Of a stretch of DNA of 64,000 nt, positions 25,165 through 55,002 are shown piece after piece. The notes beneath the pieces were generated by a model. It was given only the letters and a program-made list of their open reading frames with translations. It had not been told where the DNA came from and did not search any database. Made by a program: the position numbers and the translations under genes. The stretch comes from Escherichia phage vB_EcoM_ACG-C40. Within the stretch, counting starts at the first letter, position 1. Each line of letters opens with the position of its first letter. Location: sequence record NC_019399.1. The stretch is one strand, 5' to 3'.

Positions 25165-25413
25165 TTACTTCAGTGTTACCACAAAGTGACGAACTGCTTT
25201 TCGTGCAGCAGAAGCCAGAGGCTTAGCATATTTAAGTTCATCTTTTTCCTGAAGCTCAGCAGCTAATGCAGTTTGAGCAGGATTCAGATGTTTGAAATAA
25301 CGCAGGATTTCAAGAGCTTCGGCTTCAACATCAATAGATGCGCCATAGTTTTCGTGACCATTATTCCATGCGTTTCGTTGCAGTTCAAGAGCGTGTTGTA
25401 ATTGTTTAATCAT
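25165..25413 (-). CDS. rIII: lysis-inhibition accessory protein rIII
   Basis: 82-aa ORF MIKQLQHALELQRNAWNNGHENYG..., recognised. Confidence 0.85.
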   Translation of the reverse strand: MIKQLQHALELQRNAWNNGHENYGASIDVEAEALEILRYFKHLNPAQTALAAELQEKDELKYAKPLASAARKAVRHFVVTLK

Positions 25414-25560: not shown

Positions 25561-25896
25561 TCACTTATAAAGACACGGAATAGCTTTATAGTGACAGGTA
25601 ACGAATTTTTGTTTAATTTCTTTTGGCTGCTTAAGACCCAGAGCTACAAAAGGATGCGGAACATTTCGAATTTGACCAACTGGAAGAGAAGTCAAATCGC
25701 CAACTTCGCAGAAACCTTCAGGAACATCAGGACCGACAGAGTGAACTACACACAGTTCAGGAACTTCACCTTGAACACGTTTACCGATAATAAGTCCTGA
25801 TTCTGTAACTTCTTCATCACCGGCTTGTGCAGGTTCAGAAACTAAAATAACATATTCACCGACAGCACGAATTGGTAGCTGTTGTACTTCAGACAT
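25561..25896 (-). CDS. 31: co-chaperonin gp31 (GroES-like)
   Basis: 111-aa [25 protein letters not shown]..., recognised. Confidence 0.9.
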
Positions 25897-26498: not shown

Positions 26499-27079
26499 TA
26501 TTCACCACAGAATTCGTTGATATTTTCCCAGTTTAACTTATTCAAGTTTTTCTTAGGAACATTAAACACTTCAATACCTGCATTTCGCAGAATATCATCC
26601 CAGCCAGGTTTATTCTTATCGTATGTTTCGCAATAAACCAGCTTTTTAATTCCAGATTGAGCTATCGCTTTTGCACAATCCGGACAAGGAGAAAGTGTTA
26701 CATACATAGTAGCACCTTCAATTGAAGAACCGTTTCGTGCAGCAAACAAAATAGCATTTAGTTCAGCATGAATTTCATTTTTAGACGACCATTCAGAGTG
26801 CGCGCTACGATGTTCTTTCGCCAATACAAAACGATCAGTTGAACCAAATGATACACATTCAGGCTTATGACCTTGAATGATAGTATGTTTAGGTTTATTC
26901 AGCAACCAACCTTGCTCAGCAGCATAATCACAACAGTTCACACCCCCTGCAGGTGAACCATTATACCCAGTAGAAATAATACGTCCATTCTTTTCAATTA
27001 CTGCTCCTACCTTCCAGGAGCAACATTTTGATTCTTGTGATACTAAATATGCAATTTGAAGTACTGTACTCGCTTTCAT
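26498..27079 (-). CDS. cd: dCMP deaminase
   Basis: 193-aa ORF with cytidine/deoxycytidylate deaminase zinc motifs HAELNAI ... PCPDCAKAI. Confidence 0.9.
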   Translation of the reverse strand: MKASTVLQIAYLVSQESKCCSWKVGAVIEKNGRIISTGYNGSPAGGVNCCDYAAEQGWLLNKPKHTIIQGHKPECVSFGSTDRFVLAKEHRSAHSEWSSKNEIHAELNAILFAARNGSSIEGATMYVTLSPCPDCAKAIAQSGIKKLVYCETYDKNKPGWDDILRNAGIEVFNVPKKNLNKLNWENINEFCGE

Positions 27080-27414
27080 TTCATAATCACCAGATAAGCA
27101 GATTTAGCAGTTTCAACACGATAAATTTCGTGACGAAGTTTAGTTATACTTTTAATAACAGAACTAATTATATTCTGCCCATCTTTAAAGCGGTTTTTCT
27201 TATCAATAAAAATTGCGCCAACCATCTTTTTGTGAAGCTCAACTGGATACTTCGTCACAATAATAGCATCATACACAGAAGGATGAATACTATTCACTAG
27301 AGTGTCATTCATTAAAGTTATTCTAATGAACTGTGCTGTTTCAGAGTCAAGCGCTCTATGATCGCCAGTATCATTTTCAAGACAATTATCAATTATATCA
27401 GTTAAATTCATCAT
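27076..27414 (-). CDS. hypothetical protein (112 aa)
   Basis: ORF track. Confidence 0.55.
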   Translation of the reverse strand: MMNLTDIIDNCLENDTGDHRALDSETAQFIRITLMNDTLVNSIHPSVYDAIIVTKYPVELHKKMVGAIFIDKKNRFKDGQNIISSVIKSITKLRHEIYRVETAKSAYLVIMK

Positions 27415-27647
27415 AGTACGCCATACACCCTTTGTGCTTCAACTAATCCATCAAAATCCAATTTGAGATGTGTTATTTGGTCACCATCACCTGGATTCAC
27501 AATTACTAATACTGAACGAGGAGTTTCGGTAATAACGCGAACCGATGTTTCCGGAAATCGTTCAGAAACCTTATTTACCAATTCCTGGGCAAATAGTTTA
27601 ACTTTTTCTTGGAATTCTTTAACAGTAATTGGTTTTTCACTTAGCAT
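27411..27647 (-). CDS. hypothetical protein (78 aa)
   Basis: ORF track. Confidence 0.55.
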   Translation of the reverse strand: MLSEKPITVKEFQEKVKLFAQELVNKVSERFPETSVRVITETPRSVLVIVNPGDGDQITHLKLDFDGLVEAQRVYGVL

Positions 27648-27669
27648 TTTGTTTTCCTCATTCGTTTTG

Positions 27670-27710
27670 GTAGAGCTATAATATCACAACTCTACCATAA
27701 AGTAAACTGT
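27670..27710 (-). promoter_or_regulatory. T4 early-type promoter (GTTTAC -35, TATTAT -10)
   Basis: - strand GTTTAC-18nt-TATTAT upstream of gene starting 27647. Confidence 0.5.
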
Positions 27711-27985
27711 TAAATTGCTTTGAATTCTGATGTCTGTGATTCAAAACGAATATCACCTTTGATGACTAGCTCAGCATCAAGACCGAATACGACAATGATA
27801 TGCGCGGAACCTGGATACAACGTAATGGCAATAGAATCCACCTGGTCTGGAAGCAAAGTATTCAATACATGAGTCACTTGAGCATGAATTCGAAGCTCGG
27901 CTGCGTTATCAAGCTTTTCAAACATATTATTAGCAATAATTTGGCTAAACACTACTTCTACGATTTTAGAATAAGTCGGAAACAT
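27710..27985 (-). CDS. hypothetical protein (91 aa)
   Basis: ORF track. Confidence 0.5.
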   Translation of the reverse strand: MFPTYSKIVEVVFSQIIANNMFEKLDNAAELRIHAQVTHVLNTLLPDQVDSIAITLYPGSAHIIVVFGLDAELVIKGDIRFESQTSEFKAI

Positions 27986-27987
27986 AT

Positions 27988-28180
27988 TTACCTCACATAA
28001 TTTTCTTCAAGCCAATCAATAACATCCAACGCATTATCAAAAGTTGAACCATCTACTTTGTCTTCTGTTTCATAATCAAGAACATCTAAGCCTACTCTTC
28101 CATCAACAATAGGCCATAAACAAAATAGATATTTCTTTTCTTTTTCAATTTTATCACAAAGACGATAAATCTTTTCTAGG

Positions 28181-28188
<8 letters not shown>
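27988..28188 (-). CDS. hypothetical protein (66 aa)
   Basis: ORF track. Confidence 0.5.
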
Positions 28189-29599
<1,411 letters not shown>

Positions 29600-29603
<4 letters not shown>

Positions 29604-29830
29604 TTATTTTTCTCAACCAATGATTGAATATAATCATGCAGGTCTTTAGATGCTTTACCCCACTTATTTTGATATTCATTTTTAAGATTAGCACGTGATT
29701 GAGCTAATAAAACATCATTAGTTGGAGGTAAAGATTCTAATCGCTGAATCTGGCGTCCATAAATCATTGCAGCCATCTCGGATTCATAAATCAATCCTTT
29801 GAGATGTTCAAATTGATGCCATGAAATCAT
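29600..29830 (-). CDS. hypothetical protein (76 aa)
   Basis: ORF track. Confidence 0.5.
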
Positions 29831-30126
29831 TTACATTTATCCTCTTTTAACTCTTGACGATAATAACATATCATAGTTTTCTGATCATGTACATATCGTT
29901 TTACATCATTAAGCCAAATACGAAATTCCTGGGAATCTTCGAATGGCATACCGACCCAAGCTTTACCATCAATAACTTTAACTTGCCAAGATAATTTAGC
30001 TTCGTCATATGACTTTATTTGTACAGGCCAATTAGGATGAACTGTTTCTTTCTTTACTTCTAGAGGCTTTGTCGAACAACCAACTAGAAGACCAATAGAT
30101 AATATTACTGCTGATAGTTTAATCAT
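29827..30126 (-). CDS. pseT.2: outer-membrane spanin (o-spanin) lipoprotein
   Basis: signal peptide with lipobox LLVGC; pairs with upstream i-spanin-like gene; T4 spanins are pseT.3/pseT.2. Confidence 0.6.
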   Translation of the reverse strand: MIKLSAVILSIGLLVGCSTKPLEVKKETVHPNWPVQIKSYDEAKLSWQVKVIDGKAWVGMPFEDSQEFRIWLNDVKRYVHDQKTMICYYRQELKEDKCK

Positions 30127-30476
30127 TTAGAAAGGTCCTGGATGTCTTCTGCGAACTTGTTGAAGGAGTTGTTGATTTGTTTTTCAACCAATCCTGGCTT
30201 ATGAGCCACCACATCCGCCTTCTTTGCGTCTTTGCGCAGTTTTTCATTTTCACGCTCAATAGCAGCAATTGCCTCACGATTTTTATTATTCATCGCATCA
30301 ATATAATTATACTGAATTCGCAAATTATTTAATGCTAAGGCGTTTTCATTGGCCGTTTTTGTAATTTCAGTAACTGATGTTTCTAATCTTTCTACCTTAT
30401 TTTTTAAAATAATAGATGTTCCGCCAAATGCTATTACAAGTAATAGCAATCCAGCTGTAAAATTACTTACATGCAT
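30123..30476 (-). CDS. pseT.3: inner-membrane spanin (i-spanin)
   Basis: N-terminal transmembrane segment followed by coiled-coil-rich periplasmic domain; overlaps o-spanin start. Confidence 0.6.
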   Translation of the reverse strand: MHVSNFTAGLLLLVIAFGGTSIILKNKVERLETSVTEITKTANENALALNNLRIQYNYIDAMNNKNREAIAAIERENEKLRKDAKKADVVAHKPGLVEKQINNSFNKFAEDIQDLSK

Positions 30477-30970
30477 AAAGTTTTAATAACCTCTATAATA
30501 TCGTCTTGAGAAAGACCGTTAATTAAAATATGATGTTCAGCCGGAGATTTAGAAATTTTAAAGCACGCCGCAACATCTTCTGCCATATCCGATGCGCTAC
30601 GATTTGGATTACTAATTCCAAGACGATGCTTTCCTGTCAAAGGATTAACGATGATATAGCATTTGCAGCTATTGATATGAACATTAGGTTGAGTCTGATT
30701 AATAAACACTTCACAATCATACTTAGCGAGTTGATTTTCTAAAAAGACTTTCATCTCCTCAACCGCATCAGGAAGCATATCACGGGCTTGCTCAAGACGA
30801 CGATTTCGATATTCTTTAATGGTTGTTTTCCGCTTTACTTGCTTAGCTAAATCTTTCTTAAGATCGGTGATATATCCAACTCGACGATTTCCTTTGAATA
30901 CAGAAATCCCATCTGTAGTATCACCGTATGCTTCAACGACCATTTCAGTAGTAATGAGCTGCAAATCCAT
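30467..30970 (-). CDS. alc: Alc, inhibitor of host transcription
   Basis: 167-aa product from MDLQLITTEMVVEAYGD; track ORF has a 5-codon extension that lies within the 52-bp repeat. Confidence 0.75.
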   Translation of the reverse strand: MDLQLITTEMVVEAYGDTTDGISVFKGNRRVGYITDLKKDLAKQVKRKTTIKEYRNRRLEQARDMLPDAVEEMKVFLENQLAKYDCEVFINQTQPNVHINSCKCYIIVNPLTGKHRLGISNPNRSASDMAEDVAACFKISKSPAEHHILINGLSQDDIIEVIKTLCM

Positions 30971-30979
30971 CATAAAGTC

Positions 30980-31031
30980 CCTCATGTTATGTCAGTAAGA
31001 CTACTGTAACACAACACGAGGGACTTGTAAA
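30980..31031. repeat. 52-bp perfect repeat, copy 2 (first copy at 17273..17324)
   Basis: identical 52-nt string; - strand reads GTTTACAAGTCCCTCGTGTTGTGTTACAGTAGTCTTACTGACATAACATGAGG. Confidence 0.85.
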
Positions 31032-31035
31032 CAAC

Positions 31036-32623
<1,588 letters not shown>

Positions 32624-32624
32624 A

Positions 32625-32650
32625 ATAAAATGGGCCTTGCGGCCCACTCC
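32625..32650 (-). terminator. hairpin between nrdB and denA
   Basis: tgggcc-ttgc-ggccca with T-rich run on - strand immediately before denA ATG. Confidence 0.5.
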
Positions 32651-33829
32651 TTAAAAGTATTTTTTAAAACTCATCATAACTTTATCATCAACATCATTAT
32701 CAATCTGTGCAACAAGATAAGATGACAGTTCTACTTCTTGTGGCGCTGATTGAACATTATCAGAATTAAGATATTCACGAATCCAAGGATATGGATGTTT
32801 AACCGGAGCATCGGTAATTGGGCATGGAAGACCACACTGTTTCATACGAGATACAGTTAAGTAATCAATAAAGCTCCACATGCTATTTGTATTTAATCCA
32901 GGAACATCGCCATCTTTAAATAAATGAACTGCCCAATCTTTTTCTTGGCGGTTAACTTCCATGAAAATATCAACTGCTTCTTGTTCACACTCTTGAGCAA
33001 TTTTAACCCATTGATCGCCATCAGTACCAGATTGAAGTTGACGAATAATATATTGGGTGCCTTTAAGGTGAAGCTGTTCATCGCGTGCAATGAACTTCAT
33101 AATCTTGGCATTACCTTCCATGATTTCCATGTTCTTATGGAAGTTAAAGGTACATGCAAAAGATACATAAAAACGAATAGCTTCCAATGCGTTGATTACA
33201 TGCAAACAGAGGTAAAGAGATTTCATTAGCTCACGCTTCCAATATGTCTCATGCTCAATAGCATCTTCAATAACGTCTTCGTCTGCGTTAATTTCTTTTT
33301 GGTATTCGATATCAGCTTTAGCGTTTTCCCAATAACGAGTTTTAATCAGAACATCATCATAATAACGTCCAATGGATTCAGCACGTTTCATAATAGCTTC
33401 ATCTAATACAATTTCATCAAATACCTTCGATGGATCAGTATAAAGATTTCGCATGATATGAGTATATGAACGACTGTGAATAGTTTCACTAAAAGTCCAT
33501 GTAGCAGCCCATGTATCAAGACTTGGGTCTGAAATTAATGACATAAGTACAGCAGACGGCGCACGACCCTGAATGCTATCTAAAAGTGATTGATACTTCA
33601 GGTTGTTAGTAAAAATATTTTGCTGGTACTGAGGAAGCTTATTAAACTGTGCAGCATCCATCATCAAGTTTACTTCTTCAGGACGCCAGAAAAATGATAA
33701 TTGCTTTTCGGTTAAATCTTCAAAAACTTTATGACGTTGAATATCATAACGCGCAATACCAAGACCTGAACCAAAAAACATAGGTTCTTTTAAAACATCA
33801 ACTGGATTTGTATTAAAAACTGTGCTCAT
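32651..33829 (-). CDS. nrdB: ribonucleotide reductase small subunit NrdB (uninterrupted, no intron)
   Basis: 392-aa continuous ORF with R2 features and conserved C-terminal tail. Confidence 0.9.
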   Translation of the reverse strand: MSTVFNTNPVDVLKEPMFFGSGLGIARYDIQRHKVFEDLTEKQLSFFWRPEEVNLMMDAAQFNKLPQYQQNIFTNNLKYQSLLDSIQGRAPSAVLMSLISDPSLDTWAATWTFSETIHSRSYTHIMRNLYTDPSKVFDEIVLDEAIMKRAESIGRYYDDVLIKTRYWENAKADIEYQKEINADEDVIEDAIEHETYWKRELMKSLYLCLHVINALEAIRFYVSFACTFNFHKNMEIMEGNAKIMKFIARDEQLHLKGTQYIIRQLQSGTDGDQWVKIAQECEQEAVDIFMEVNRQEKDWAVHLFKDGDVPGLNTNSMWSFIDYLTVSRMKQCGLPCPITDAPVKHPYPWIREYLNSDNVQSAPQEVELSSYLVAQIDNDVDDKVMMSFKKYF

Positions 33830-33880
33830 AAATTTTCCGCTTAGTTAATAGTTGGTGACTCGTCCGTGAGTCAAATTATA

Positions 33881-36145
33881 TCATAATTTACAGGATGAAC
33901 AATCTTCAGCTTTTGGAGTTTCTATTTCATAATCATCAGTACCAGAACCATCGCGGGTATTATGATAATAGAAATTTTTTCCGCCAAAATACCAAAAATA
34001 CAAAAGGTCATCAATCATTATTGACATTGGAACCTTTCCTTTTGGAAAAATCTGCGGGTCATAATATGTATTCGCTGAAGCTGATTGACATACCCATTTC
34101 AGCATAATAGCTACCTGCGTAAGATAAGGTTTATTACCTTTCTTAGCTAATTTCCATGTATAATCATATAGGTCTATGTTATGCTCAATATTGGGCACGA
34201 CTTGATTAAAGGAGCCCTCTTTTGATTCTTTAACAGAGACTGGTCCACGTGGAGGCTCGATACCGTTTGTACTGTTAGAAACTTGGGAAGATGACTCACA
34301 TGGCATAAGTGCTGATAATGTGCTATTACGGATGCCAAAGAGCTTAAGGTCTTCCCGCAGCGCCGACCAGTCACAAACGTATTTTGGAGCTGCGATTTGG
34401 TCAATCTTTTTATTGTACCAGTCGATAGGTAATTCGCCTCGAGACCAACGAGTGTCTGAATAATATTCGCAAGGTCCTTTTTCTTTGGCGAGCTTAATGG
34501 ATGCTTTAATGAGTCCATACTGTAATCTCTCAAATAGTTCATGTGTTAAATCATTAGCATCTTCATAAGAAGCAAAGTTACTTGCCAGCCAAGCTGCATA
34601 GTTGGTAACACCTACACCGAGGTTACGACGCTTTTTAGCTTTTTCTGCTTCAGGAACTGGATATCCTTGGTAATCCAACAGATTATCAAGAGCACGAACT
34701 TGAACTTCTGCCAATTCATTAATTTTATCTTGGTCTTGCCAGTCAAAATTATCTAGTACGAATGCAGAGAGAGTACACAATCCAATTTCAGCATCAGGAC
34801 TATTCACATCATTTGTTGGAATAGCAATTTCACAGCACAAGTTACTCTGACGAATAGGCGCCTTTTCACGAATAAACGGAGTATAGTTATTCGTATTATC
34901 AATGAACTGCACATAAATCCTTGCGGTTCCTGAACGTTCAGTCATGAGCAATTCAAATAGTTCACGGGCTTTAATACGCTTTTTACGAATATTAGGGTCT
35001 TTTTCTGCTGCTTCGTATAATTCACGGAAACGGTTTTGGTCTTTAAAATAAGAATAATAAAGTTCGCCACCCATTTCATGCGGACTGAACAAAGTAATGT
35101 AATCATTCTTTCCGAATCGTTCCATCATTAGGTCATTCAGTTGAACGCCATAATCCATATGACGGATACGGTTTTCTTCTACGCCTTTGTTATTTTTCAA
35201 AACGAGAAGATTTTCAACTTCCAAATGCCAAATAGGATAATAAGCAGTAGCAGCGCCGCCACGAATTCCACCCTGTGAGCATGATTTAACTGCAGTCTGA
35301 AAATGTTTCCAAAAAGGAATAACACCAGTATGGCGTACTTCACCCATGCCAATCTTAGAACCTTCAGCACGAATCATACCAACGTTAATACCAATTCCAG
35401 CGCGTTTAGAGATATATTCAACAATTGAAGCGGAAGCCTTGTTGATAGACTTTAATGAATCACCTGCCTCAATAACAACACATGAACTAAACTGTCGAGT
35501 CGGAGTACGACAACCAGCCATAATAGGAGTTGGTAATGAAATCTGTCGAGTAGATACTGCTTCATAAAAACGGATAACGTGTTTTAATCTATCAACAGGT
35601 TCATCTTGATGCAATGCCATTCCAATAGTCATAAATGCAAACTGTGGAGTTTCATAAATTTGACCAGTGGTTTTATCTTTAACTAGATATTTTTCTTTTA
35701 ATTGCATCGCCCCGGAATAAGTAAATTCCATATCCCGTTCGTGCTTAATTTTTGATTCTAAAAATGTAATTTCTTCTGCTGAATATTTTGACAACAGTTC
35801 AGGGTCGTATTTACCTTCATTTACACAGTAAGAAATATGGTCAATAAATGAACGCGGTTCATACTGCCCATAAACATGCTTACGAAGAGCGAACATTAGA
35901 CAACGTGCAGCTACATATTGATAATCAGGCTCTTCAACCGAAATAGAATTCGCAGCGGCCTTAATGACAATAGTCTGAATATCATCAGTTGTCATTCCAT
36001 CACGGAGATAAGATTTAATATTTTCATATAATTCATAAGGATCTACTGATGTTCCCTCAGCTGCCCAAGATAAAACTTTAATAATTTTTTGTGGGTCAAA
36101 GCTCTGAGAAACACCACTACTTTTGATAACATTAATTAATTGCAT
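33881..36145 (-). CDS. nrdA: ribonucleotide reductase large subunit NrdA
   Basis: 754-aa ORF with ATP-cone N-terminus and class I RNR catalytic core. Confidence 0.9.
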   Translation of the reverse strand: MQLINVIKSSGVSQSFDPQKIIKVLSWAAEGTSVDPYELYENIKSYLRDGMTTDDIQTIVIKAAANSISVEEPDYQYVAARCLMFALRKHVYGQYEPRSFIDHISYCVNEGKYDPELLSKYSAEEITFLESKIKHERDMEFTYSGAMQLKEKYLVKDKTTGQIYETPQFAFMTIGMALHQDEPVDRLKHVIRFYEAVSTRQISLPTPIMAGCRTPTRQFSSCVVIEAGDSLKSINKASASIVEYISKRAGIGINVGMIRAEGSKIGMGEVRHTGVIPFWKHFQTAVKSCSQGGIRGGAATAYYPIWHLEVENLLVLKNNKGVEENRIRHMDYGVQLNDLMMERFGKNDYITLFSPHEMGGELYYSYFKDQNRFRELYEAAEKDPNIRKKRIKARELFELLMTERSGTARIYVQFIDNTNNYTPFIREKAPIRQSNLCCEIAIPTNDVNSPDAEIGLCTLSAFVLDNFDWQDQDKINELAEVQVRALDNLLDYQGYPVPEAEKAKKRRNLGVGVTNYAAWLASNFASYEDANDLTHELFERLQYGLIKASIKLAKEKGPCEYYSDTRWSRGELPIDWYNKKIDQIAAPKYVCDWSALREDLKLFGIRNSTLSALMPCESSSQVSNSTNGIEPPRGPVSVKESKEGSFNQVVPNIEHNIDLYDYTWKLAKKGNKPYLTQVAIMLKWVCQSASANTYYDPQIFPKGKVPMSIMIDDLLYFWYFGGKNFYYHNTRDGSGTDDYEIETPKAEDCSSCKL

Positions 36146-54345: not shown

Positions 54346-55002
54346 ATGGCAGCACCTAGAATATCATTTTCGCCCTCTGATATTCTATTTGGTGTTCTAG
54401 ATCGCTTGTTCAAAGATAATGCTACCGGGAAAGTTCTTGCTTCCCGGGTAGCTGTTGTAATTCTTTTGTTTATAATGGCGATTGTTTGGTATAGGGGAGA
54501 TAGTTTCTTTGAGTACTATAAGCAATCAAAGTATGAAACATACAGCGAAATTATTGAAAAGGAAAGAAATGCACGCTTTGAATCTGTCGCCCTGGAACAA
54601 CTCCAGATAGTTCATATATCATCTGAGGCAGACTTTAGTGCGGTATATTCTTTCCGCCCTAAAAACTTAAACTATTTTGTTGATATTATAGCATACGAAG
54701 GAAAATTACCTTCAACAATAAGCGAAAAATCACTTGGAGGATATCCTGTTGATAAAACTATGGATGAATATGCAGTTCATTTAAATGGACGTCATTATTA
54801 TTCCGACTCAAAATTTGCTTTTTTACCAACTAAAAAGCCTACTCCCGAAATAAACTACATGTACAGTTGTCCATATTTTAATTTGGATAATATCTATGCT
54901 GGAACGATAACCATGTACTGGTATAGAAATGATCATATAAGTAATGACCGCCTTGAATCAATATGTGCTCAGGCGGCCAGAATATTAGGAAGGGCTAAAT
55001 AA
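54346..55002 (+). CDS. t: holin T
   Basis: 218-aa ORF, one N-proximal TMD and large periplasmic domain. Confidence 0.9.
   Translation: MAAPRISFSPSDILFGVLDRLFKDNATGKVLASRVAVVILLFIMAIVWYRGDSFFEYYKQSKYETYSEIIEKERNARFESVALEQLQIVHISSEADFSAVYSFRPKNLNYFVDIIAYEGKLPSTISEKSLGGYPVDKTMDEYAVHLNGRHYYSDSKFAFLPTKKPTPEINYMYSCPYFNLDNIYAGTITMYWYRNDHISNDRLESICAQAARILGRAK

What the first reader, a model, noticed from the sequence alone, without database searches (positions are those of the whole stretch)
29827..30476. Spanin pair assigned from sequence features
An N-terminally anchored coiled-coil protein (117 aa) overlaps a lipoprotein with lipobox LLVGC (99 aa), the signature of an i-spanin/o-spanin pair. With holin t at 54346 this accounts for part of the lysis system in the window; the endolysin gene is not here.
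Basis: partly seen in the sequence, partly recalled or inferred. Interest (0 to 1): 0.2.

Follow-up and report, generated by a model that had tools for sequence, protein, structure and literature searches.

The report
T4 spanin genes pseT.3 and pseT.2

Summary
On the minus strand, 30123..30476 encodes a 117-aa protein with one N-terminal transmembrane segment and a long helical periplasmic domain. 29827..30126 encodes a 99-aa protein with a signal peptide and the lipobox L-L-V-G-C (Cys17, Ser at +2). The window is a Tequatrovirus, 97.8% identical to Shigella phage Sf24. The two proteins match T4 PseT.3 at 116 of 117 residues and T4 PseT.2 at 98 of 99, the other position being ambiguous in the T4 record. 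RefSeq annotates both as Rz-like spanins. Kongari et al. 2018 (PMC6139136) showed that T4 pseT.3 and pseT.2 complement a lambda Rz-am/Rz1-am lysis defect, and that PseT.2 Cys87 and Cys98 are both essential. Cys17, Cys87 and Cys98 are invariant in five other Straboviridae genera. One correction: the "overlap" is only a 4-nt ATGA start/stop junction. Every neighbouring gene in this chain has the same junction, and T4 is the textbook "separated" spanin architecture, so the overlap is not a spanin signature. The side claims hold: holin t is at 54346..55002, and no endolysin e homolog is in the window. Already known; low interest.

The parts
30123..30476 (-). pseT.3, the i-spanin (117 aa plus stop). 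It has an N-terminal transmembrane segment at about residues 6-24. The periplasmic helix alpha1 runs to residue 91, followed by a Pro94-Gly95 break and helix alpha2 at 94-116. It has no Cys.
   Evidence: ORF. 116/117 identical to T4 PseT.3 NP_049837, and 100% identical to RB27 and SHFML-26. PHROG 739 E 9.7e-38. Hydropathy. AlphaFold2 pLDDT 88.
29827..30126 (-). pseT.2, the o-spanin (99-aa precursor plus stop). It has a signal peptide with lipobox LLVG|C17, and Ser18 at +2, which predicts outer-membrane sorting. The mature form is 83 aa and carries Cys87 and Cys98.
   Evidence: ORF. Identical to T4 PseT.2 NP_049836 at all determined positions, and 100% identical to RB14 and T4_ev240. PHROG 812 E 3.5e-43. 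Lipobox patterns. Cys17/87/98 invariant in six genera.
30123..30126 (-). ATGA junction: the pseT.2 start codon overlaps the pseT.3 stop codon, which suggests translational coupling. An AGGA lies 9 nt upstream of the ATG.
   Evidence: Sequence read directly. The same 4-nt junction occurs in VR26, CkP1, Cronus, Assk and Merlin, and at three neighbouring non-spanin junctions here.
54346..55002 (+). Holin gene t (218 aa). It acts upstream of the spanin in the lysis pathway but is not linked to it.
   Evidence: PF11031 Phage_holin_T, E 1.9e-117, 391 bits against a cut-off of 22.2.
25168..25413 (-). rIII, the lysis-inhibition accessory gene (cytoplasmic antiholin). It is a further lysis-control gene in the window.
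   Evidence: tblastn with T4 RIII: 82/82 identical, E 2e-52. T4 annotation.

Best explanation
The two genes are the two-component spanin of a T4-like (Tequatrovirus) phage.

How it most likely works:
1. PseT.3 inserts into the inner membrane through its N-terminal transmembrane segment, N-in/C-out. It projects a largely helical domain of about 90 residues into the periplasm.
2. PseT.2 is exported. It is lipidated at Cys17 and cleaved by signal peptidase II. [quoted passage not shown]
3. The two periplasmic domains bind each other, so complexes span the periplasm threaded through the peptidoglycan mesh.
4. Holin T opens the inner membrane and endolysin E, which is encoded outside this window, removes the peptidoglycan. 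The complexes are then free to move sideways and change conformation. They pull the two membranes together and fuse them, which destroys the outer membrane and releases the progeny.

T4-type particulars: the i-spanin has no cysteine. The o-spanin is structured (beta-alpha-beta) rather than proline-rich and disordered. Both of its periplasmic cysteines (87 and 98) are needed, probably through isomerisation of an intramolecular disulfide into two intermolecular ones.

Shown experimentally, for T4 proteins 99-100% identical to these: complementation of the lambda spanin defect, the Cys requirement, and PseT.3-dependent disulfide dimers of PseT.2.
Shown here: identity to the T4 proteins, the topology signals, and their conservation.
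Inferred: lipidation and outer-membrane sorting of PseT.2, the topology of PseT.3, the fusion step (by analogy with lambda Rz/Rz1), and a requirement during infection by the phage itself.
For: - Phage and locus identity: the 1.9-kb region is 97.8% identical to Sf24 and matches 650 T4-like records. It has the same gene order, rnlA-alc-pseT.3-pseT.2-pseT.1-pseT, as T4 NC_000866, where both genes are annotated as Rz-like spanins.
- Protein identity: 116/117 residues to T4 PseT.3, and all determined positions of T4 PseT.2.
- Family: PHROG 739 and 812 'Rz-like spanin', full-length matches at E 1e-37 and 3.5e-43.
- Topology signals: transmembrane segment 6-24; lipobox LVGC with Cys17 and Ser at +2.
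- Helical periplasmic domain: helix 5-91 and helix 94-116, pLDDT 88, which matches the published alpha1-short linker-alpha2 description.
- Conservation: the adjacent i/o pair with the 4-nt junction occurs in Gaprivervirus, Karamvirus, Roskildevirus, Ceceduovirus and Moonvirus. The hydrophobic N-terminus and the C-terminal KPKLVEKQIN motif of the i-spanin are conserved. Cys17, Cys87 and Cys98 of the o-spanin are invariant.
- Experiment (PMC6139136): a plasmid carrying pseT.3 and pseT.2 restored lysis to a lambda Rz-am/Rz1-am lysogen. The C87S, C98S and double mutants were lysis-defective. A reducing-agent-sensitive PseT.2 dimer formed only when PseT.3 was present.
- Fusion model and architecture classes.
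Against: - No detectable sequence homology to lambda Rz/Rz1. No match to a Pfam Rz or Rz1 family appeared at E <= 0.1 and NCBIfam gave nothing meaningful, so 'Rz-like' means a functional analogue.
- By simple K/R counting, the positive-inside rule does not favour N-in for PseT.3: no K/R before the transmembrane segment and three after it, although the net charge of the following 15 residues is 0.
- Coiled-coil support from heptad periodicity is modest (3.1% of shuffles reach it).
- The o-spanin single-sequence model is unreliable (pLDDT 51), and neither subunit has a solved structure.
- I found no paper in the searchable library that tests a pseT.2 or pseT.3 knockout in T4 itself. Lipidation of PseT.2 and the fusion step are inferred.
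- The genes lie in the alc-pseT gene chain, with no TATAAATA late-promoter motif on their strand within 27-34 kb. This differs from classical late lysis cassettes.
Confidence: 0.96

Rival explanations
1. The pair is an envelope-protein duo with a different main job, such as superinfection exclusion or envelope remodelling by a phage lipoprotein plus a membrane partner. On this reading the spanin-like features are incidental.
For: The genes sit among genes annotated with nucleic-acid functions (alc, pseT, rnlA) rather than beside t or e. No late-promoter motif lies on their strand within 27-34 kb. No sequence homology to lambda Rz/Rz1 was detected.
Against: The T4 proteins, 99-100% identical to these, fully replace lambda Rz/Rz1 in lysis, and point mutants of PseT.2 abolish this (PMC6139136). 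The topology signals a spanin needs are all present and conserved across genera. Dispersed lysis genes are normal for T4: t, e, rI and rIII are all unlinked.
Confidence: 0.03
2. The sequence features are chance. These would then be two small ORFs that merely carry a hydrophobic N-terminus each, with no functional partnership.
For: Short hydrophobic N-termini and 4-nt overlaps are common in this AT-rich, tightly packed genome. The same ATGA junction occurs at three neighbouring non-spanin junctions.
Against: Both ORFs are conserved as an adjacent pair in the five other Straboviridae genera sampled, at 25-65% amino-acid identity, with invariant Cys17, Cys87 and Cys98. The i-spanin is found in 680 phage records and the o-spanin in 1172. 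PseT.2 dimer formation depends on PseT.3.
Confidence: 0.01

Closest known systems
Phage T4 PseT.3/PseT.2 two-component spanin ('separated' architecture; Summer et al. 2007 as cited in PMC12162936; Kongari et al. 2018, PMC6139136)
   Same: These are effectively the same proteins: 116/117 identical for PseT.3, and identical at all determined positions for PseT.2. They have the same lengths (117 and 99 aa), the same flanking genes alc and pseT.1, the same ATGA junction, and the same Cys pattern (none in the i-spanin; C17, C87 and C98 in the o-spanin).
   Different: There is one substitution in the i-spanin: Asn26 here, His26 in T4. It lies at the membrane/periplasm boundary, and other Tequatroviruses such as RB27 and SHFML-26 share it exactly. 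The phage is not T4 itself: it carries an extra 106-aa ORF between pseT and pseT.1.
Lambda Rz/Rz1 spanin (embedded architecture)
   Same: The same two-subunit logic applies: a type II inner-membrane protein with a helical periplasmic domain, plus an outer-membrane lipoprotein. The two systems are functionally interchangeable in lambda lysis. The same inner/outer-membrane fusion model is proposed for both.
   Different: No detectable sequence homology. In lambda the o-spanin gene lies wholly inside the i-spanin gene in the +1 frame. Lambda Rz has two coiled-coil domains and two Cys. Rz1 is a 40-residue, proline-rich, unstructured mature protein with one Cys. PseT.3 has one coiled-coil-prone helix and no Cys. 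PseT.2 is 83 residues when mature, is structured, and has two essential Cys.
P2 LysB/LysC (overlapped architecture) and T1 gp11 (unimolecular spanin)
   Same: They perform the same final outer-membrane disruption step of lysis and need the same kinds of membrane-targeting signals.
   Different: P2 LysC starts inside lysB and extends beyond it, which is a true coding overlap, whereas the shared stretch here is only 4 nt. [quoted passage not shown]

Membership tests
Two-component spanin (functional class) | The i-spanin subunit is a small protein with a single N-terminal transmembrane segment and a periplasmic, mainly helical, coiled-coil-prone domain. | tested here: met
   Transmembrane segment at residues 6-24, KD 2.24. 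Helix 5-91 and helix 94-116, pLDDT 88. Heptad enrichment in residues 25-52, reached by 3.1% of shuffles. The hydrophobic N-terminus is conserved in six genera. TMHMM and Phobius are not available, and the N-in/C-out orientation was not tested.
Two-component spanin (functional class) | The o-spanin subunit has a signal peptidase II lipobox with an invariant Cys, and a +2 residue compatible with outer-membrane sorting (not Asp). | tested here: met
   VILSIGLLVGC matches a regular expression written after the PROSITE lipoprotein pattern. LVGC matches the classic lipobox. Cys17 is followed by Ser18. Cys17 is invariant in six genera. LipoP and SignalP are not available, and actual lipidation was not tested.
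Two-component spanin (functional class) | The i- and o-spanin genes are adjacent (embedded, overlapped or separated), with the i-spanin gene first. | tested here: met
   pseT.3 lies immediately upstream of pseT.2, joined by ATGA. The same arrangement occurs in five other genera. Kongari et al. class the T4 pair as 'separated'.
Two-component spanin (functional class) | At least one periplasmic Cys is available for homotypic intermolecular disulfide bonds. | tested here: met
   The i-spanin has no Cys. The o-spanin has Cys87 and Cys98, both invariant. Both are essential in T4 PseT.2 (PMC6139136).
Two-component spanin (functional class) | The pair is required for, or able to perform, outer-membrane disruption in lysis (complementation of a spanin-null phage). 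| not testable with these tools
   This was shown in the literature for T4 proteins that are 99-100% identical: complementation of lambda Rz-am/Rz1-am (PMC6139136). It has not been tested for this exact phage, and I found no paper testing a knockout in T4 itself.
T4 PseT.3 / PseT.2 sequence families (PHROG 739 / PHROG 812) | A full-length, significant profile match and near-identity to the type proteins. | tested here: met
   PHROG 739 E 9.7e-38 (residues 1-117) and PHROG 812 E 3.5e-43 (residues 1-99). Alignments to the T4 proteins.
Lambda Rz / Rz1 sequence families (Pfam Rz and Rz1 models) | A significant match to the Rz or Rz1 profile. | tested here: not met
   No Rz or Rz1 family match at E <= 0.1 for either protein; only weak, below-cut-off matches for the i-spanin, several of them to coiled-coil models. 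The pair works like Rz/Rz1 but does not belong to those sequence families. The weak hits to other 'Rz-like' PHROGs (PHROG 214 at 3.5e-6, PHROG 89 at 1.6e-3) cover the transmembrane segment and coiled-coil part of the protein.

The most novel reading that the evidence does not exclude
The spanin genes sit in the alc-pseT gene chain, which I take from general knowledge of T4 to be an early transcription unit, and no late-promoter motif lies nearby on their strand. T4-type spanin complexes might therefore be made long before lysis and have a second role. Candidates are tethering or conditioning the envelope during lysis inhibition, or affecting superinfection, in addition to the final outer-membrane disruption. 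Nothing I ran excludes this, and nothing supports it beyond gene position.
Probability: 0.04. Interest if true: 0.4.

Novelty: already known. Interest (0 to 1): 0.05.

Why it matters
It matters little beyond correct annotation. The pair completes the outer-membrane step of this phage's lysis pathway and confirms that T4-type lysis genes are scattered: t, rIII and the spanins are in this window, while e and rI are elsewhere.

There is one practical lesson for sequence-only scans. A 4-nt ATGA junction is generic gene packing in T4-like genomes and should not be read as the spanin "overlap" signature. The diagnostic features are an N-terminal transmembrane segment followed by a helical domain, and next to it a lipobox protein with a non-Asp +2 residue and periplasmic Cys.

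Many deposited T4-like genomes still label one or both genes "hypothetical protein", so the assignment is useful for annotation clean-up.

Tried and rejected
- Pfam and NCBIfam scans of both proteins gave no meaningful family. This was informative only in showing no homology to lambda Rz/Rz1.
- PDB sequence searches found no solved relative.
- The single-sequence model of the o-spanin came out at pLDDT 51. I did not use it for the Cys87-Cys98 geometry or for fold searches.
- The sigma-70 promoter and terminator scan of 28.0-33.5 kb found no more sites than shuffled sequence (21 against 22.6 expected), so I make no promoter claim from it.
- A MotA-box middle-promoter pattern had no match between 29 and 33 kb and was not clearly enriched in the window (6 against 2.3 expected, with 7 of 100 shuffles reaching 6).
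- Literature searches for a T4-context knockout of pseT.2 or pseT.3 found none in the searchable library.

Full report
**1. What is in the sequence**

The stated interval holds two minus-strand ORFs: 30123..30476 (117 aa) and 29827..30126 (99 aa). Read on the coding strand, the junction is ...CTT TCT AAA TGA with ATG ATT AAA starting one base earlier. The downstream start codon and the upstream stop codon therefore share the four bases ATGA.

The 117-aa protein:
- It has a single strongly hydrophobic stretch, residues 6-24 (FTAGLLLLVIAFGGTSIIL, Kyte-Doolittle 19-mer mean 2.24).
- It has no cysteine and only one proline.
- A single-sequence AlphaFold2 model is confident (mean pLDDT 88). It consists of one long helix, 5-91, and a second helix, 94-116, separated at Pro94-Gly95.
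- Hydrophobic a/d heptad periodicity is strongest in residues 25-52. The enrichment is 0.72 against 0.51 +/- 0.10 in composition-matched shuffles, and 3.1% of shuffles reach it.
- Pfam gives only weak, below-cut-off matches, several of them to coiled-coil models.

The 99-aa protein:
- It begins M-I-K followed by LSAVILSIGLLVG-C17-S18.
- This satisfies a regular expression I wrote after the PROSITE lipoprotein pattern, and also the classic lipobox.
- Ser at +2 is the outer-membrane sorting configuration under the E. coli +2 rule (established knowledge).
- It has two further cysteines, at 87 and 98.

**2. What phage and what genes**

The 1.9-kb region matches 650 phage records, nearly all of them T4-like phages of Escherichia, Shigella and related enterobacteria. 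The best match is Shigella phage Sf24, a Tequatrovirus, at 97.8% identity.

The gene order on the coding strand is rnlA - alc - 117-aa ORF - 99-aa ORF - pseT.1 - (106-aa ORF) - pseT. Apart from the 106-aa ORF, this is the order in T4 NC_000866. There the two genes are pseT.3 and pseT.2, both annotated "Rz-like spanin".

- The 117-aa protein differs from T4 PseT.3 at one residue (Asn26 here, His26 in T4).
- The 99-aa protein is identical to T4 PseT.2 at every determined position; codon 86 is ambiguous in the T4 record.
- Exact copies occur in other Tequatroviruses, including RB27, SHFML-26, RB14 and T4_ev240.
- Both proteins give full-length matches to PHROG 739 and PHROG 812, "Rz-like spanin", at E 9.7e-38 and 3.5e-43.

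**3. Conservation**

I fetched the homologous loci from five other Straboviridae genera:
- Gaprivervirus VR26
- Karamvirus CkP1
- Roskildevirus Cronus
- Ceceduovirus Assk (an Aeromonas phage)
- Moonvirus Merlin

In each, a membrane-anchored ORF of about 117-125 aa lies immediately upstream of a lipoprotein ORF of about 96-101 aa, with the same 4-nt junction.

The i-spanins are only 25-47% identical to the window protein. They still keep the hydrophobic N-terminus and a C-terminal KPKLVEKQIN-like motif. The o-spanins are 37-65% identical, and Cys17, Cys87 and Cys98 are invariant. Chance ORFs are excluded.

**4. The overlap is not a signature**

The 4-nt ATGA junction recurs at pseT.2/pseT.1, at pseT.1/orf106 and at orf106/pseT. 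The alc/pseT.3 junction overlaps by 10 nt. This is ordinary tight gene packing, probably with translational coupling.

The spanin literature defines three arrangements. In "embedded" the o-spanin gene lies inside the i-spanin gene. In "overlapped" it starts inside and extends beyond. In "separated" the genes do not overlap. That literature uses T4 as the example of "separated".

**5. Function and mechanism**

Kongari et al. 2018 (PMC6139136) cloned T4 pseT.3 and pseT.2 in place of RzRz1. They report the following:
- The pair restores lysis to an induced lambda Rz-am/Rz1-am lysogen in Mg2+-supplemented medium.
- The C87S, C98S and double mutants of PseT.2 are lysis-defective.
- PseT.3 forms no SDS-stable dimer.
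- About 30% of PseT.2 is found as a reducing-agent-sensitive dimer, and only when PseT.3 is present.

They propose that an intramolecular Cys87-Cys98 disulfide isomerises into two intermolecular bonds after the complex forms.

The general model is as follows (credited there to Rajaure et al.). Complexes span the periplasm and are held within the peptidoglycan mesh. Once holin and endolysin have removed the wall, the complexes diffuse sideways and change conformation. They then fuse the inner and outer membranes.

For this locus, the identity, the topology signals and the conservation are shown here. The lytic function and the Cys requirement are shown in the literature for essentially identical proteins. 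Lipidation, outer-membrane sorting, N-in/C-out topology and the fusion step are inferred.

One caveat concerns topology. Simple K/R counting does not favour N-in for PseT.3: there is no K/R before the transmembrane segment and there are three after it. However, the net charge of the 15 residues that follow is zero, so the free N-terminal amine could tip the balance toward N-in.

**6. Relation to lambda Rz/Rz1**

Neither protein matches a Pfam Rz or Rz1 family or any NCBIfam model, and neither has a solved relative. The pair works like Rz/Rz1 but is not a sequence-family member.

Its build also differs:
- The i-spanin has one coiled-coil-prone helix plus a short second helix, and no Cys.
- The mature o-spanin is a structured 83-residue protein with only four Pro and two essential Cys.

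**7. Side claims**

- 54346..55002 (+) is holin T (PF11031, E 1.9e-117).
- tblastn with T4 endolysin E finds nothing in the window (best E = 2.0). This also argues against a gp5-type lysozyme domain being present, since from my own knowledge that domain is related to E.
- RI is absent as well.
- RIII, the lysis-inhibition accessory protein, is present and 100% identical to T4 RIII at 25168..25413 (-).

**8. Context**

There is no TATAAATA late-promoter motif on the minus strand between 27 and 34 kb. Generic sigma-70 and MotA-box scans were uninformative.

The spanin genes thus sit in the alc-pseT chain, away from t. Kongari et al. already note that they are not near t or e. I make no claim about when they are expressed.

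**9. Verdict**

The feature is already known, already annotated in RefSeq and already tested experimentally. Interest is low.

Noticed in passing
window 25168..25413 (-): rIII (lysis-inhibition accessory protein, cytoplasmic antiholin) is present and 82/82 aa identical to T4 RIII. The gp31 co-chaperonin gene lies next to it at 25564..25896 (-).
   Followed up: partly
window 29283..29603 (-): A 106-aa ORF of unknown function (PHROG 2364, E 2e-58) lies between pseT and pseT.1. T4 itself has no gene there, since pseT and pseT.1 abut. Sf24 has it, and 702 phage records in the collection encode it. It is a small accessory-gene polymorphism among Tequatroviruses.
   Followed up: partly
window 28378..30985 (-): Every junction in the chain pseT.3 > pseT.2 > pseT.1 > orf106 > pseT is a 4-nt ATGA start/stop overlap, and alc > pseT.3 overlaps by 10 nt. 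This suggests a translationally coupled gene chain.
   Followed up: yes
window 27000..34000, minus strand: No T4 late-promoter motif (TATAAATA) lies on the coding strand of the spanin genes in this 7-kb span. The only copy is on the + strand at 31572. The spanin genes therefore lack an obvious late promoter of their own, unlike holin t on the + strand. Expression timing was not resolved.
   Followed up: partly
window 30467..30985 (-): The mechanical ORF for alc starts at an upstream ATG and gives 172 aa. T4 and Sf24 annotate 504 nt (167 aa), and the Pfam ALC match begins at residue 6. The true start is probably the second or third Met (MMDLQL...).
   Followed up: no
phage records matched: Many deposited T4-like genomes still annotate pseT.3, and sometimes pseT.2, as 'hypothetical protein' or 'putative membrane protein', while others say spanin Rz/Rz1. 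Annotation across the collection is inconsistent.
   Followed up: no
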